NCBI GenBank assembly: GCA_963695075.1
Contig: CAVOFR010000007.1
Location: 1,616,904-1,680,903, forward strand
Source: an uncultured Acidimicrobiales bacterium
GTDB taxonomy: Bacteria > Actinomycetota > Acidimicrobiia > Acidimicrobiales > CAWCAL01
Direction: 5' to 3'
DNA length: 64,000 bases
Shown here: piece after piece, positions 34,846 through 38,887 of the stretch
How positions within the stretch are numbered: position 1 is the stretch's first letter
How the letters are laid out: each line of letters begins with the position of its first letter
The notes under the pieces: model-generated
The model's database searches: none
Told to the model about the DNA's origin: nothing
Seen by the model: the letters and a program-made list of their open reading frames with translations, nothing else
Translations under genes and position numbers: made by a program

Positions 34846-36108
34846 TCAGGATCGACCGTGGCAGTGCTTGAGCTTGCGGCCGCTGCCGCAGGGGCACGGG
34901 TCGTTTCGGCCGGCTCGGGCGAAGGACCGCCGCTTCTCGTCTTCGAGCATTCCGGTCACCTCGGTCACCGGCGCTCCTCGGTGCAACAGGTCCGCCATCA
35001 GCTCCATCGGATGGCGCACATGGGAGAAGAACGCCTCATAGCTCGGGCAGAGGTAGTTCAGCGGACGACCTTCGTCGCCGGTGGCCACGAAACGGTTCTT
35101 GGGACAGCCGCCCGCGCACGCGATGCGGACCGAGCAGTCGAGACAGTCCTGGGGAAGCGTGTCGCGCTTGTCGAGCCCGAAGCGGGTCTGCGCAGGTGAC
35201 CGAGCCAACTCCGCCATCGGTGTCACGGTGATGTTCCCCAGCAGATTCGAGGGACCGACGAAGTGGTCGCACGAGTAGAGATCGCCGTTGTGCTCGAGCG
35301 CCATCGCCGTTCCGCAGGTCTCGCTGAACGAACAGAGGGGTGAGGGTAGACCGGCGTAGGCGGCGAGCGCGACGTCGAAGATCTGCACGAAGACCTTCCC
35401 GACGTCTTCGCGGACCCACTCGTCGAACACCGCGATGAGGAAGTCGCCGTACTGGCGCGACCCCACGGAGCTCCCCGTCACGGTCGCCTCGGCGTCCTCG
35501 CCGCGCTCGACGATGGGGATGAACTGGATGTATTCGACACCCGCTTCGTCCCGGAGGAAGTGGTACACCTCGAGAGGGTGATCGCCCGTGACGTCGTTCA
35601 CGGTCGCGAGGACGTTGAACTCGGTGCCGTGCTGCTGGAGCAGACCCAGAGCATTCATGACCCGGTCGAAGCTGGGCCGACCGCGCTTGTCGACCCGGTG
35701 GGCGTCATGGAGCTCGCGAGGTCCGTCCAGACTGAGCCCGACGAGGAAGTCGTGCTCGACCAGGAACCGACACCAGTCGTCGTCGAGGAGGACACCGTTG
35801 GTCTGGATCCCATTCGTGAATTCGGTGCCCGGCGGGCAGTGCTTCTCCTGCAACTCGACGACCCGTTCGAAGAACGGGAGTCCCATCAGGGTGGGTTCGC
35901 CGCCTTGCCATGCGAACTCGGCGAGGCCCCCGCGCGCCGACTCGAAGCGCTGCCGAACGTACACCTCCGACGTCTCATCGGACATGCGGAACCCGGTCCC
36001 CTCGTAGAGGGCGACCTTGTCCTGGTAGAAGCAGTACCGGCAGTCGAGGTTGCAGATCGCCCCGCGGGGCTTCGCCATCACGTGGAAACGTCTGGCCACT
36101 CTCCGCAC
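34846..36108 (-). CDS. Radical-SAM/SPASM maturase of the anaerobic-sulfatase-maturating-enzyme (anSME) type with a C-terminal SEC-C motif
   Basis: [21 protein letters not shown] (CxxxCxxC), GGEPTL, SPASM-like Cys clusters ([32 protein letters not shown]), and the tail [17 protein letters not shown]. Confidence 0.8.
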   Translation of the reverse strand: [420 protein letters not shown]

Positions 36109-36157
36109 ACTCCCTCTGCACCCGGGTCCGAAGGCCCTGCCACCCCGAAGACCGATT

Positions 36158-38887
36158 CTACCGGTGTGTCGTCGGCTCGACCTCCACGCGGAACAGGCGG
36201 TCGGACTGCTGGGGCTGCCATTGGAGGTCGGAGTAGGCGAGGTGACCGTATCCCCCGGCGAAGTGCAGCGACTTCACCATGCCGGGTTCGACCCAGGTCA
36301 CATCCTTCCACTCGGGGTACAGGTACTGCTCCCATGACCCGTAGAGGATCACCTGGCCGGGCCGGACCGACGACGTCAGCCGAGCGCGCACCGCCAGCTC
36401 GCCGACGTCGTTGAAGACCCGGACCGTGTCGCCATCGGCGACCTGGCGGGCGTCGGCATCGTCGGTGTTGAGGTGGATCGTCGGCCCGCCCCGGGTCGTT
36501 TCGAGCATCATCCGGCTCGAGGTGTTGGTGGCGTGGATGCTCCAGCGGGGATGACCGCCGGTGAGCTGGAGTGGGTAGTCGCCGCCGGCCGGCGGTGGGT
36601 CCTTGTGGACGGGCAGGTGCTCGTCGGCTTCGAAGAACCACGGGTGGTCGAGGTAGAACTGAGCGCGGCCGGTCAGCGTCGGGAAGGGCATGCCTTCCAG
36701 GTGGTGTCGATAGGCGACGAACGGTCCGTCGTCGTCGAGGTCACCGGCACAGACGCCGGCCATGATGCGGGGGAGCTCGGTGGGTCGCACCCAGCCGGTC
36801 TCGCGCAAGCTGCTCACCGATGTCCCCGGCGGCACGCTCCCGGCCAGAGCGCTGTCACGCAGCACCTCGTCGATGGCCGCCTCCTCGGTTCGGACGGCGC
36901 CGCCCATCGTGACGGTGTCGAACACCCCGGAGTAGCTGCGCTTGCCGCCCCGGGAGTCGTCGAAGGTGTCGAGCCCACGCTCTGCCGCGCGCCGGGTGAT
37001 CGCCTCGGCCAGCCCCAGGAAGATCTGCCAGTCCGATCGCGATTCGCCCTCGGGCTCGACCGCCTTGTCGGCGAGCATCCGTTCCCACGAGTGCGAGTTG
37101 GCGGCGTGGAGGTCCAACCGCTCGTGCTCGCAGGCGACCGGCAGCACCAGGTCCGCGTACAGGCCGACCGTGCTCATCTTCCAGTCGAGTACGGCGATCA
37201 TGTCGAGCTTGGGCCACAAGTGGCGGAGCAGTTGGCGCTGGCCGCCCCGGGTTCGGCGCAGTGTGTTCGTACCGGCCTGGAGCAGCACGCGAGGGGTCAT
37301 CTGCGGCTTGGGGCGCACCAACCCGCTCCACCAGCCGCGGGACTGCGATTCGCGGATGTACTCGTCGTAGGGGCGGGGGCTGTCGCCCCAGCCTTCGTGG
37401 TCCCAGATCTCGTCGAAGCCGCAGTGGTACCAGAAGAAGAAGGCGGGTGGGGTCGAGGGCATGTTCGGCGCGTTGGCCTGCATCATCTGGAGCACGGCGC
37501 GACCGTCGGTCATGGCCGGGTCCGACGCCTTCATGGCATCGAGGTAGGCGTCGAGGCCGGCGACGGCGGCCTCGGCCGACTCGATTCCCGCGCCGCCCTT
37601 CAGCAGTCCCAGCACCTCCCCGTCGAGAAGGGCGATGATGTAGGTGTCGAGCCCACGGCCGGCCTGTCCCCAGTTGCCGGTGAGTGCGAGCACCAGGTCC
37701 ATGGCGCGTTCCATCAGGTCACCGTGATGGTGCTTGCAGCTGCCCAGCCCGTTGTACAGCTTGGTTCGGCCCGAGGAGACCATCCGGGCCAGCTCGCGGA
37801 TCGTGGCCGGCGCCACGTCGCAGATCTGCGACGCGTCCTCGGGCGAGTAGCCGGCCAGGCGCTCGCGCAGCAGTTCGAACACGGGTGTGACCTCGACCCG
37901 GGTGCCGTCCAGGAGCGACACCTCCCACCGGCCCTCCAACGCGACGTCGGACGGCGCCTTCGGATCATCGAGCCGGGTCTGATCGGAGGGAGTCAGGGAC
38001 CCGCCCCGCCAAACGTAGAACCGGTCGGCGCGCCCGTCCGGCTCGACGTCCTCGGAGCGGAGGAACCGCCGGGTGTCGGTACGCACCAGGAGTGGAAGGT
38101 CGGTCTGGGATCGGACGAAGTCGAGGTCGGCCAGGCCCTCGTCGACGATCACCCGGCACATCGAGAGCGAGAGGGCGGCGTCGGAGCCCGGCCGGACCGG
38201 CACGTGCATGTCGGTGTGCATGGCCGACGGGCTGTAGTCGGGGGCGATCAACACGACCTTGGCGCCGTGGTAGCGGGCTTCGGGCAGGTAGTGGAAGTAG
38301 GGGATGCGCGTGAAGGCGGGGTTGCAGTTCCACACGAGGATCACATCGGCTCGGAACGTGTCGTCGGCGCTCGAACCGCCCAGCAGGCTGCCGAACGTCA
38401 TCCAGTGCCCGAGGTGCACGTCGCTCACCGTCGAGTTGCTGTCGAACGTCACCGAGTCGAGTGCCGCGCCGAGACGGGCCCGGCCCAGGCCACCCGCCAC
38501 GCCCGACTCGGGCCCGGGGTCCATGATGATCGAGTGCGCTCCCTCGCCCTCGAGTCCGTCGATGACCGCGTCCGCGAGGCTGTCGAGAGCATCTTCCCAG
38601 CCGATGCGTTCCCACTCACCCGAGCCCCGCTCACCCACCCGCCGCAACGGATGGAGTAGCCGCTCGTCGCCCTGGGCCTGTGTGTGCCATGCACCGCCCT
38701 TCTGACAACCGAGCGGGTTCATGTCGGGCACACCGTCGTAGGACGGCAGACCCCCCGACTGTTCCTGGTAGACGACCTTCCCGTCCGCCGCGAAGAGGCG
38801 GTACGAGCAGTTGGCGATGCAGTTGCCGCAATGCGACGCCCAGGTCACTTGATCCCAGGTCCAGCGGTCCGCTGGGGTGGTGGTCAT
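36158..38887 (-). CDS. Molybdopterin oxidoreductase catalytic subunit, EBDH/S25DH-like, alpha-3; no Tat signal
   Basis: ATG 38887 preceded by GAGGAG, within ORF 36158..39010. Motifs: SHCGNCIANC..NPLGCQKG. Candidate Mo-ligand Asp156 in STVSDVHLGHWMTFG. 909 aa. Confidence 0.85.
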   Translation of the reverse strand: MTTTPADRWTWDQVTWASHCGNCIANCSYRLFAADGKVVYQEQSGGLPSYDGVPDMNPLGCQKGGAWHTQAQGDERLLHPLRRVGERGSGEWERIGWEDALDSLADAVIDGLEGEGAHSIIMDPGPESGVAGGLGRARLGAALDSVTFDSNSTVSDVHLGHWMTFGSLLGGSSADDTFRADVILVWNCNPAFTRIPYFHYLPEARYHGAKVVLIAPDYSPSAMHTDMHVPVRPGSDAALSLSMCRVIVDEGLADLDFVRSQTDLPLLVRTDTRRFLRSEDVEPDGRADRFYVWRGGSLTPSDQTRLDDPKAPSDVALEGRWEVSLLDGTRVEVTPVFELLRERLAGYSPEDASQICDVAPATIRELARMVSSGRTKLYNGLGSCKHHHGDLMERAMDLVLALTGNWGQAGRGLDTYIIALLDGEVLGLLKGGAGIESAEAAVAGLDAYLDAMKASDPAMTDGRAVLQMMQANAPNMPSTPPAFFFWYHCGFDEIWDHEGWGDSPRPYDEYIRESQSRGWWSGLVRPKPQMTPRVLLQAGTNTLRRTRGGQRQLLRHLWPKLDMIAVLDWKMSTVGLYADLVLPVACEHERLDLHAANSHSWERMLADKAVEPEGESRSDWQIFLGLAEAITRRAAERGLDTFDDSRGGKRSYSGVFDTVTMGGAVRTEEAAIDEVLRDSALAGSVPPGTSVSSLRETGWVRPTELPRIMAGVCAGDLDDDGPFVAYRHHLEGMPFPTLTGRAQFYLDHPWFFEADEHLPVHKDPPPAGGDYPLQLTGGHPRWSIHATNTSSRMMLETTRGGPTIHLNTDDADARQVADGDTVRVFNDVGELAVRARLTSSVRPGQVILYGSWEQYLYPEWKDVTWVEPGMVKSLHFAGGYGHLAYSDLQWQPQQSDRLFRVEVEPTTHR

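What the first reader, a model, noticed from the sequence alone, without database searches (positions are those of the whole stretch)
34846..38887. Alpha-3 is followed by an anSME-type radical-SAM/SPASM enzyme carrying a SecA-like SEC-C zinc motif
Seen in the sequence:
- On the minus strand, alpha-3 (stop at 36158) is followed after 49 nt by a 420-aa radical-SAM protein. It has [8 protein letters not shown], SPASM Cys clusters and the tail [17 protein letters not shown].
- No sulfatase gene and no small precursor-peptide ORF is visible next to it. The gene is convergent with the delta chaperone gene.

Established knowledge:
- anSMEs oxidise Cys/Ser to formylglycine in sulfatases.
- Related SPASM enzymes modify other proteins or peptides.

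Inference: the maturase may act on a protein of this island (one of the Mo enzymes or a partner) or on a distant sulfatase. I cannot distinguish these. A post-translationally modified Mo hydroxylase would be new.
Basis: partly seen in the sequence, partly recalled or inferred. Interest (0 to 1): 0.7.

Follow-up and report, generated by a model that had tools for sequence, protein, structure and literature searches.

The report
Ordinary sulfatase maturase beside molybdenum enzyme
The radical-SAM gene behind the molybdenum-enzyme gene is a normal member of a very common family of sulfatase-activating enzymes whose zinc-finger tail is a family trait, and its position next to a molybdenum enzyme is a one-off accident of gene order rather than a sign of a new protein modification.

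Summary
A 420-aa (probably 417-aa) radical-SAM/SPASM gene with a SecA-like SEC-C tail lies 49 nt downstream of the EBDH-type alpha-3 gene. It is convergent with the delta-chaperone gene, and the 64-kb window holds no sulfatase and no precursor-peptide ORF.

The interpretation does not hold as a novelty. The protein passes NCBIfam's curated "anaerobic sulfatase maturase" model (459.5 bits against a cut-off of 349.45). It keeps every cluster cysteine and the catalytic Asp of the solved anSME.

The SEC-C tail is a family trait. All 120 listed homologs (58-69% identity; Chloroflexota, Acidimicrobiia, Methanosarcina, Acidobacteriota and others) have the same three-domain architecture.

In 79 genome loci of this subfamily, 47 have a Cys-type sulfatase in the flanks fetched (up to 10 kb each side) and 35 have one within 300 nt. 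None has a molybdopterin alpha gene.

Conversely, 0 of 43 loci with alpha-3 relatives carry a related radical-SAM gene. This includes the 88%, 75% and 73% identical orthologs. Alpha-3 also contains no C/S-x-P/A-x-R motif.

Most likely this is a genuine maturase for sulfatase(s) encoded elsewhere in this Acidimicrobiales genome. I could not search that genome.

The parts
34846..36108 (-). Anaerobic sulfatase-maturating enzyme (anSME) gene of the SEC-C-tailed subfamily. The ORF is 420 aa; the likely start is the GTG at 36099, giving 417 aa.
   Evidence: NCBIfam TIGR03942 scores 459.5 bits against a cut-off of 349.45. The best PDB match is anSMEcpe 4K36/4K37, E 2.5e-61 over residues 10-364. There are at least 8000 homologs, and the top 120 all share the same three Pfam domains.
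36031..36054 (-). CX3CX2C motif (C19, C23, C26) that binds the radical-SAM [4Fe-4S] cluster.
   Evidence: It aligns to C15/C19/C22 of anSMEcpe and is invariant in alignment A1.
35047..35334 (-). SPASM region with the eight auxiliary-cluster cysteines (C259, C265, C280, C322, C325, C331, C335, C354) and the catalytic Asp D281.
   Evidence: These residues align one-to-one with anSMEcpe C255, C261, C276, C317, C320, C326, C330, C348 and D277. All are invariant in A1.
34852..34908 (-). C-terminal SEC-C (SecA-like) metal-binding motif, [19 protein letters not shown]. It fits the CXCX8CH pattern (C405, C407, C416, H417).
   Evidence: Pfam PF02810 matches at E 5.6e-10, 39.3 bits against a cut-off of 20.4. 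It also matches the SecA C-terminal zinc peptides 1SX0, 1OZB and 1TM6. The motif is invariant across A1.
36109..36157 (-). Intergenic gap between alpha-3 and the maturase. It holds an AGGGAG ribosome-binding site, with no promoter-like or terminator-like site.
   Evidence: The consensus scan found no sites. The fold of the gap is no more stable than shuffled sequence (z +2.24). Co-transcription is inferred from this, not shown.
36158..39010 (-). Alpha-3, an EBDH/steroid-C25-dehydrogenase-like type II DMSO-reductase-family molybdopterin subunit. The likely start is at 38884 (908 aa). It is a neighbour of the maturase, not a demonstrated partner.
   Evidence: TIGR03479 scores 791 bits and EbdA 669 bits, both below their cut-offs. 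Orthologs at 88%, 75% and 73% identity lack a downstream rSAM gene. The protein has no C/S-x-P/A-x-R motif.
34823..34843 (-). 9-bp GC-rich hairpin immediately after the maturase stop codon. It is a possible end of the alpha-3/maturase transcript.
   Evidence: strand folding gives -20.9 kcal/mol for the 61-nt segment, z -1.96. There is no U-tract, so the consensus terminator scan did not call it.
34136..34795 (+). Delta (NarJ-type) chaperone gene. It is the last gene of the convergent alpha-gamma-beta-delta operon.
   Evidence: Pfam Nitrate_red_del matches at E 9.2e-09 and TIGR03482 scores 82 bits.

Best explanation
The gene encodes a bona fide anaerobic sulfatase-maturating enzyme.

How it works, from established knowledge of AtsB and anSMEcpe, not tested here:
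- Its radical-SAM cluster cleaves S-adenosylmethionine.
- The 5'-deoxyadenosyl radical abstracts the C-beta hydrogen of the Cys (or Ser) in a C/S-x-P/A-x-R motif of an unfolded sulfatase.
- With D281 as base and the two SPASM clusters as the electron outlet, the residue becomes C-alpha-formylglycine.

Its substrates are one or more sulfatases encoded outside this 64-kb window. Its position 49-58 nt downstream of alpha-3, probably on the same transcript, is a lineage-specific accident of gene order.

The SEC-C tail is an ancestral trait of this anSME subfamily. By analogy with the SecA metal-binding domain, which binds ribosomes and SecB, it may hold the enzyme near nascent or unfolded substrate. 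That last step is speculation.
For: Shown:
- The protein passes the curated equivalog model TIGR03942 (459.5 bits against 349.45). All peptide-maturase, QhpD and other SPASM models score far below their cut-offs.
- The best solved relative is anSMEcpe (E 2.5e-61). All 3 + 8 cluster cysteines and the catalytic Asp are aligned and invariant in 25 family members.
- The top 120 of at least 8000 homologs all have the Radical_SAM + SPASM + SEC-C architecture. NCBI names those it annotates 'anaerobic sulfatase maturase'.
- In 79 species-representative genome loci of this subfamily, 47 have a sulfatase in the flanks fetched (up to 10 kb each side) and 35 have one within 300 nt. Nearly all of these sulfatases carry C-x-P/A-x-R.
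- 32 of the 79 loci, and 14 of the 41 with full 10-kb flanks, have no sulfatase nearby. An unlinked maturase is therefore common (also Litorilinea).
- GC3 of the gene (0.84) matches its neighbours.

Inferred:
- Co-transcription with alpha-3, from the absence of any terminator or promoter in the gap.
Against: - No sulfatase gene was seen in the 64 kb available, and the rest of the genome could not be searched. The substrate is therefore assumed, not shown.
- The tight, same-strand spacing behind alpha-3 would normally suggest a functional link.
- The window protein and its one close relative (P0002, 69-70% identity) deviate from 16 and 19 of about 180 highly conserved columns, against 1-11 for other members. 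The branch is somewhat divergent. None of the changed positions is a cluster ligand or the catalytic Asp.
Confidence: 0.8

Rival explanations
1. The maturase is placed in this catabolic island for a pathway reason. It would activate a sulfatase, encoded elsewhere, that removes sulfate from sulfated sterols or steroids, which the island's Mo hydroxylases and beta-oxidation-like enzymes then degrade. Co-transcription with alpha-3 would give co-regulation, not direct modification. This is a special case of the best explanation.
For: - The island looks like sterol or steroid side-chain catabolism. It has four EBDH/S25DH-like alpha genes, a 3-beta-HSD/epimerase, KstD-like or amine-oxidase-like flavoproteins, thiolase/ChsH2 (DUF35) pairs, acyl-CoA dehydrogenases, CoA ligases and ETF.
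- A sulfotransferase gene lies at 353-1831.
- There is no terminator between alpha-3 and the maturase.
- One distant alpha locus (L102) has a Cys-type sulfatase fragment 2.6 kb away.
Against: - The linkage is not conserved. 0 of 43 alpha-3-type loci have the maturase and only 1 of 43 has a sulfatase. 0 of 79 maturase loci have a Mo alpha gene.
- There is no sulfatase in the window.
- The steroid assignment of the island is itself only an inference from domain content.
Confidence: 0.12
2. The enzyme has been recruited to modify a protein of the island post-translationally. The target would be alpha-3 or another subunit of the Mo hydroxylase, and the change could be a Cys/Ser to formylglycine conversion or a cross-link, as QhpD does for quinohemoprotein amine dehydrogenase.
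For: - The gene is adjacent to alpha-3 on the same strand, with a 49-58 nt gap and no terminator.
- There is no sulfatase in 64 kb.
- The window/P0002 branch is more divergent at conserved positions than other members.
- There is precedent for SPASM enzymes that modify enzyme subunits (QhpD; established knowledge).
Against: - Alpha-3 and the alpha genes at 21762 and 29541 contain no C/S-x-P/A-x-R motif at all.
- Alpha-3 orthologs at 88%, 75% and 73% identity have other genes downstream and no rSAM within 10 kb.
- 0 of 43 alpha loci and 0 of 79 maturase loci show the pairing.
- The protein passes the anSME equivalog threshold but scores 102 bits against the 453-bit cut-off of the QhpD model.
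- The active-site residues are unchanged.
Confidence: 0.03
3. The gene is an orphan remnant. The cognate sulfatase has been lost from this small genome (the contig is 2.2 Mb), and the maturase is retained without function or is on its way to decay.
For: - There is no sulfatase in 64 kb.
- The search found only one relative above 62% identity (P0002, 69%). If the MAGs that carry the 88%-identical alpha-3 ortholog had an orthologous maturase, a closer hit would be expected.
- Deviation at conserved columns is elevated.
Against: - The ORF is intact and has native codon usage (GC3 0.84).
- Every catalytic and cluster residue and the whole SEC-C motif are conserved.
- Its NJ root-to-tip distance (0.245) lies within the family range (median 0.204, maximum 0.261).
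Confidence: 0.05

Closest known systems
anSMEcpe (Clostridium perfringens anaerobic sulfatase-maturating enzyme, PDB 4K36-4K39) and AtsB of Klebsiella pneumoniae
   Same: It has the same fold family and the same three [4Fe-4S] sites. The alignment covers residues 10-364 at E 2.5e-61. C19/C23/C26 match C15/C19/C22. The eight auxiliary cysteines and D281 (= D277) are conserved. It is above the TIGR03942 threshold.
   Different: It carries an extra C-terminal extension of about 55 residues that ends in a SEC-C zinc motif; the solved enzyme lacks this. In this genome it is not next to a sulfatase.
SEC-C-tailed anSME subfamily (annotated 'anaerobic sulfatase maturase' in Litorilinea aerophila, Methanosarcina spp., Methanothrix and many Chloroflexota, Acidimicrobiia and Acidobacteriota MAGs)
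   Same: The architecture and length are identical, with 58-62% identity and an invariant [18 protein letters not shown] tail. This is the family the window protein belongs to. About a third of members with full 10-kb flanks also have no sulfatase within 10 kb.
   Different: None of the 79 sampled members lies next to a molybdopterin oxidoreductase gene. The window protein and P0002 form a somewhat divergent pair.
SecA C-terminal metal-binding domain (also in YecA, YchJ and some methionine aminopeptidases)
   Same: It has the same CXCX8CH ligand pattern, including the conserved Ser between the ligands. It matches PDB peptides 1SX0, 1OZB and 1TM6. In SecA this domain binds zinc or iron, SecB and ribosomes (bioRxiv 10.1101/613315).
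   Different: Here it is attached to a radical-SAM enzyme. Members occur in archaea such as Methanosarcina, which to my knowledge lack SecA and SecB, so a SecB-specific role is unlikely. No paper found in the held library treats this fusion.
QhpD and RiPP-type SPASM maturases (DynA, DarE/DarW, YhhB, FxsB)
   Same: They share the radical-SAM + SPASM scaffold. QhpD is a precedent for a SPASM enzyme that modifies a subunit of a redox enzyme.
   Different: Scores are far below every curated cut-off: QhpD 102 against 453, DynA 219 against 450, DarW 161 against 650. There is no precursor-peptide ORF next to the gene.

Membership tests
Anaerobic sulfatase-maturating enzyme (NCBIfam TIGR03942, anSME/AtsB) | Whole-protein score above the curated equivalog cut-off | tested here: met
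   459.5 bits against a cut-off of 349.45, covering model positions 1-362 of 363.
Anaerobic sulfatase-maturating enzyme (NCBIfam TIGR03942, anSME/AtsB) | CX3CX2C radical-SAM cluster motif | tested here: met
   C19, C23 and C26 (CNLDCRYC) align to anSMEcpe C15/C19/C22.
Anaerobic sulfatase-maturating enzyme (NCBIfam TIGR03942, anSME/AtsB) | SPASM domain with the eight cysteines that fully ligate two auxiliary [4Fe-4S] clusters | tested here: met
   C259, C265, C280, C322, C325, C331, C335 and C354 align to C255, C261, C276, C317, C320, C326, C330 and C348 of 4K37. All are invariant in A1.
Anaerobic sulfatase-maturating enzyme (NCBIfam TIGR03942, anSME/AtsB) | Catalytic Asp directly after the third SPASM cysteine (D277 in anSMEcpe) | tested here: met
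   D281 in the motif C280-D281-H282 aligns to D277 and is invariant in A1. The role of D277 is taken from published work on anSMEcpe, as I recall it.
Anaerobic sulfatase-maturating enzyme (NCBIfam TIGR03942, anSME/AtsB) | A sulfatase substrate with a C/S-x-P/A-x-R motif encoded in the same genome | not testable with these tools
   None is present in the 64-kb window. The source genome is not retrievable: one search found no record, and the single genome-collection scan did not return it.
Anaerobic sulfatase-maturating enzyme (NCBIfam TIGR03942, anSME/AtsB) | Gene located next to or near a sulfatase gene. As I recall, this is a property of the model's seed members; it is not a requirement for membership. 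| tested here: not met
   There is no sulfatase within 29 kb on one side or 34 kb on the other. However, 32 of 79 homolog loci, and 14 of the 41 with full 10-kb flanks, also lack one.
Anaerobic sulfatase-maturating enzyme (NCBIfam TIGR03942, anSME/AtsB) | Formylglycine-forming activity on a sulfatase peptide | not testable with these tools
   This needs a biochemical assay.
SEC-C / SecA-like metal-binding domain (Pfam PF02810) | CXCX8C[HC] ligand pattern and a score above the gathering threshold | tested here: met
   The pattern is C405-P-C407-GSGRKLKH-C416-H417. The score is 39.3 bits against 20.4. PDB SecA zinc peptides match at E 7e-7.
   0 of 79 maturase loci have a Mo alpha homolog. 0 of 43 alpha-3-type loci have a rSAM homolog, including the 88%, 75% and 73% identical orthologs.
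   Alpha-3 and the alpha genes at 21762 and 29541 have no occurrence. No island protein has the extended sulfatase-like motif in a Cys context.
QhpD and peptide-modifying SPASM maturases | Score above the curated cut-off of the respective NCBIfam model, with an adjacent precursor gene | tested here: not met
   All such models score far below their cut-offs. The flanking gaps of 49 and 50 nt leave no room for a peptide ORF.

The most novel reading that the evidence does not exclude
The somewhat divergent window/P0002 branch of the SEC-C-tailed anSME family may have been recruited to modify a non-sulfatase protein of this Acidimicrobiales island, for instance alpha-3 or another subunit of the cytoplasmic EBDH-like Mo hydroxylase. 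The modification would be at a non-canonical site, which would make this the first post-translationally modified enzyme of that class.
Probability: 0.03. Interest if true: 0.8.

Novelty: new member of a known kind. Interest (0 to 1): 0.12.

Why it matters
As it stands, it matters little. The gene is one more member of a very large, already annotated family, and the apparent link to a molybdenum hydroxylase is not conserved.

Two smaller points remain:
- The function of the SecA-like tail carried by thousands of anaerobic sulfatase maturases, including archaeal ones, appears unstudied. It could reflect docking to ribosomes or unfolded precursors, so that formylglycine is made before the sulfatase folds or is exported.
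- If the genome's sulfatases act on sulfated sterols, co-transcription with alpha-3 would hint at a catabolic route for sulfated steroids in Acidimicrobiia.

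Tried and rejected
- Retrieving the source genome to list its sulfatases failed. The exact-sequence look-up of P0001 found no record.
- I ran no further search on a sulfatase query in the hope of spotting a hit on the 2,200,182-bp contig. Only the best 120 hits are listed, and I judged the chance of success at about 10%.
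- The closest maturase homolog, P0002 (69-70% identity), sits on a 1.8-kb contig. Its downstream gene is a PEBP-family protein. Only 142 nt lie upstream, too little to say whether a Mo alpha gene precedes it.
- A literature search for 'anaerobic sulfatase' + 'SEC-C' + 'radical SAM' found nothing. A search on steroid C25 dehydrogenase and Acidimicrobiia found nothing specific.
- MoaA-type Moco biosynthesis was considered and rejected. The protein has a SPASM domain, its best matches are anSME models, and no MoaA model appeared among the listed NCBIfam hits.
- RiPP maturase was considered and rejected. There is no room for a precursor ORF, and all RiPP-maturase models score far below their cut-offs.
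- Recent horizontal insertion was considered. GC3 is native-like. An NJ tree groups the protein loosely with Myxococcales and Anaerolineales members rather than Acidimicrobiia, but it has no support values, so I draw no conclusion.

Full report
**Observation**

- A minus-strand ORF at 34846..36108 (420 aa) carries CNLDCRYC at residues 19-26. It has a cysteine-rich C-terminal half and ends in [21 protein letters not shown].
- It is convergent with the delta-chaperone gene at 34136..34795.
- The most plausible start is the GTG at 36099. This gives 417 aa, which equals database protein P0001, and places AGGGAG 10 nt upstream.
- Alpha-3 most likely starts at the ATG at 38884 (908 aa), the length of its homologs.
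- Pfam finds Radical_SAM, SPASM and SEC-C, all above their gathering scores.

**What the protein is**

- NCBIfam's equivalog model for anaerobic sulfatase maturase (TIGR03942) matches end to end at 459.5 bits, against a curated cut-off of 349.45.
- Every other SPASM family model falls far below its cut-off. This covers dynobactin and darobactin maturases, YhhB, FxsB, QhpD, SCIFF and others.
- The best solved relative is the Clostridium perfringens enzyme anSMEcpe (4K36/4K37, E 2.5e-61, residues 10-364).
- In that alignment the three radical-SAM cysteines, the eight auxiliary-cluster cysteines (C259, C265, C280, C322, C325, C331, C335, C354) and the Asp that follows the third one (D281 = D277) are all in register.
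- All of these residues are invariant in an alignment of 25 family members.
- By sequence, then, the protein is a complete and apparently functional anSME.

**The SEC-C tail is not special to this gene**

- The homolog search saturated at 8000 scored candidates.
- All 120 listed hits (58-69% identity) have the same Radical_SAM + SPASM + SEC-C architecture.
- They come from Chloroflexota, Acidobacteriota, Longimicrobiales, Methanosarcina, Methanothrix and others. Where a source names them, it calls them anaerobic sulfatase maturase.
- The tail [18 protein letters not shown] is invariant in the alignment. It fits the CXCX8CH pattern of the SecA metal-binding domain exactly.
- In SecA that domain binds zinc or iron, SecB and ribosomes (bioRxiv 10.1101/613315, read).
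- I found no paper in the held library that discusses the fusion to anSME.

**What normally sits next to this subfamily**

A profile scan of one genome per species returned 79 loci with flanks of up to 10 kb. I built a sulfatase HMM from ORFs that match the PROSITE sulfatase signature and ran it on all six-frame ORFs.

| Measure | Count |
|---|---|
| Loci with a sulfatase (at least 80 bits) in the flanks | 47 of 79 |
| Loci with a sulfatase within 300 nt of the maturase | 35 of 79 |
| Loci with no sulfatase in the flanks | 32 of 79 |
| Loci with full 10-kb flanks and no sulfatase | 14 of 41 |

- Nearly all of these sulfatases carry a Cys-type C-x-P/A-x-R motif. Three recurrent types were seen: about 800 aa with ALCSPTR, about 500 aa with PVCSPxR, and about 515 aa with QSCTAGR.
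- An unlinked maturase is therefore common. Litorilinea aerophila is another example.
- A phmmer search with alpha-3 found molybdopterin alpha homologs only in the window itself, and in none of the other 84 loci.

**The same question from the alpha-3 side**

- Alpha-3's nearest relatives are 88% identical (Acidimicrobiales MAGs), then 75% and 73%. This places the window in Acidimicrobiales.
- In those contigs the gene after the alpha-3 ortholog is a PF10118 metal hydrolase, a convergent Oxidored_molyb/cytochrome b gene, or a TPP enzyme.
- No radical-SAM gene lies within 10 kb in any of them.
- A metagenome scan added 36 more loci.
- Over all 43 alpha loci, 33 of which have at least 1.3 kb downstream, phmmer with the maturase found nothing at E <= 1e-3.
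- The maturase search found only one relative above 62% identity. The MAGs that carry the 88%-identical alpha-3 ortholog therefore apparently lack an orthologous maturase.
- The pairing is confined to this window.

**Is there a target in the island?**

- None of the 46 window proteins scanned is a sulfatase. The sulfatase HMM also finds nothing in the window's six-frame ORFs.
- Alpha-3 and the alpha genes at 21762 and 29541 contain no C/S-x-P/A-x-R motif at all.
- The only two Cys-type core matches in the window lie in unrelated proteins without the extended sulfatase context.
- The gaps of 49 and 50 nt on either side of the maturase leave no room for a peptide gene.

**Transcription**

- The gap between alpha-3 and the maturase has no promoter-like or terminator-like site. 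It folds no better than shuffled sequence (z +2.24).
- A 9-bp GC-rich hairpin follows the maturase stop codon directly (z -1.96).
- Co-transcription with alpha-3 is therefore plausible, but it is inferred.

**Caveats**

- The source genome could not be retrieved. The existence of a cognate sulfatase is assumed from family behaviour.
- The window protein and its only close relative (P0002) differ from 16 and 19 of about 180 columns that are at least 90% conserved. Other members differ at 1-11.
- In an unsupported NJ tree their root-to-tip distance (0.245-0.261) is above the median (0.204) but within the family range.
- None of the deviating positions is a cluster ligand or the catalytic Asp.
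- This leaves a small probability of a shifted function.

**Verdict**

- The gene is an ordinary member of the widespread SEC-C-tailed anSME subfamily. It most likely matures sulfatases encoded elsewhere (confidence about 0.8).
- This reading includes a minority variant in which those sulfatases feed sulfated sterols into the island's pathway.
- The idea of a post-translationally modified Mo hydroxylase is not supported. It fails both tests that could be run, conserved linkage and recognition motif. I put it at about 3%.
- Interest is low.
- The one general point worth a specialist's attention is the unexplained role of the SecA-like tail across the whole subfamily, including archaeal members. 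To my knowledge archaea have no SecA or SecB, so ribosome or unfolded-substrate docking seems more likely than SecB binding.

Noticed in passing
window 21762-24545(+), 29541-32444(+), 36158-39010(-), 42004-45366(-); gamma 32299-33027, beta 32918-34126, delta 34136-34795: There are four paralogous EBDH/steroid-C25-dehydrogenase-like alpha genes (about 50% identical to each other) but only one gamma-beta-delta set in 64 kb. This recalls the multiple S25DH alpha subunits of Sterolibacterium that share beta and gamma subunits. By eye, the N-termini of alpha-1 and alpha-3 show no twin-arginine motif, so these enzymes may be cytoplasmic, unlike EBDH and S25DH. All alphas score below the NCBIfam cut-offs.
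   Followed up: partly
window 1-64000: By domain content the whole window looks like a sterol or steroid side-chain catabolic island of an Acidimicrobiales bacterium. It contains thiolase/ChsH2-DUF35 pairs, acyl-CoA dehydrogenases, enoyl-CoA hydratases, ETF alpha/beta, CoA ligases, about nine KstD-like or amine-oxidase-like flavoproteins, a 3-beta-HSD/epimerase (38914-39936), a luciferase-like monooxygenase, and TetR and MarR regulators.
   Followed up: partly
window 353-1831 (+): This is a sulfotransferase gene (Sulfotransfer_3, E 1.9e-42). It is the only other sulfur-ester-related gene in the window. Its relation to the maturase is unknown.
   Followed up: no
window 11323-12672 (+): A DUF222 protein (the actinobacterial 13E12-repeat/HNH-associated family) sits inside the catabolic island. 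It may be a mobile-element remnant.
   Followed up: no
L007-L009, L011, L014, L017, L018, L023, L028, L033, L038, L039, L041, L044, L051, L059, L083 (next to the maturase gene, downstream in most): Across several phyla and in methanogens, the SEC-C-tailed maturase is followed directly by a sulfatase of about 515 aa. This sulfatase has the variant motif QSCTAGRAAFITG (C-x-A-x-R rather than C-x-P-x-R), which suggests a conserved maturase-sulfatase gene pair.
   Followed up: partly
alignment A1; window residues 398-420: The SecA-like CXCX8CH tail is invariant in the anSME subfamily, including Methanosarcina and Methanothrix members. To my knowledge archaea lack SecA and SecB, so the tail's role is probably not SecB docking. 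I found no literature on it.
   Followed up: partly
L090 4671-12739 compared with window 29541-39010: In the contig with the 73%-identical alpha-3 ortholog, the order is alpha-gamma-beta-delta-alpha3, all on one strand. In the window, alpha-3 plus the maturase is inverted relative to the alpha-gamma-beta-delta operon. This implies a local rearrangement or insertion in this lineage.
   Followed up: no
L102 13332-14141: A Cys-type sulfatase fragment (AMCSPTRAALMTG) lies about 2.6 kb downstream of a distant (38% identical) alpha homolog in one metagenomic contig. It is the only such case among 43 alpha loci and is probably a coincidence.
   Followed up: partly
window 40412-41989 (+) and 24545-26026 (+): Two island proteins are of unclear function. 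One is a 525-aa polytopic membrane protein with weak NQR2/RnfD/RnfE similarity (below the cut-off). The other is a 493-aa protein with only a weak nitroreductase hit, located directly after the alpha gene at 21762. A nitroreductase-family gene also lies near the alpha-3 ortholog in L088.
   Followed up: no
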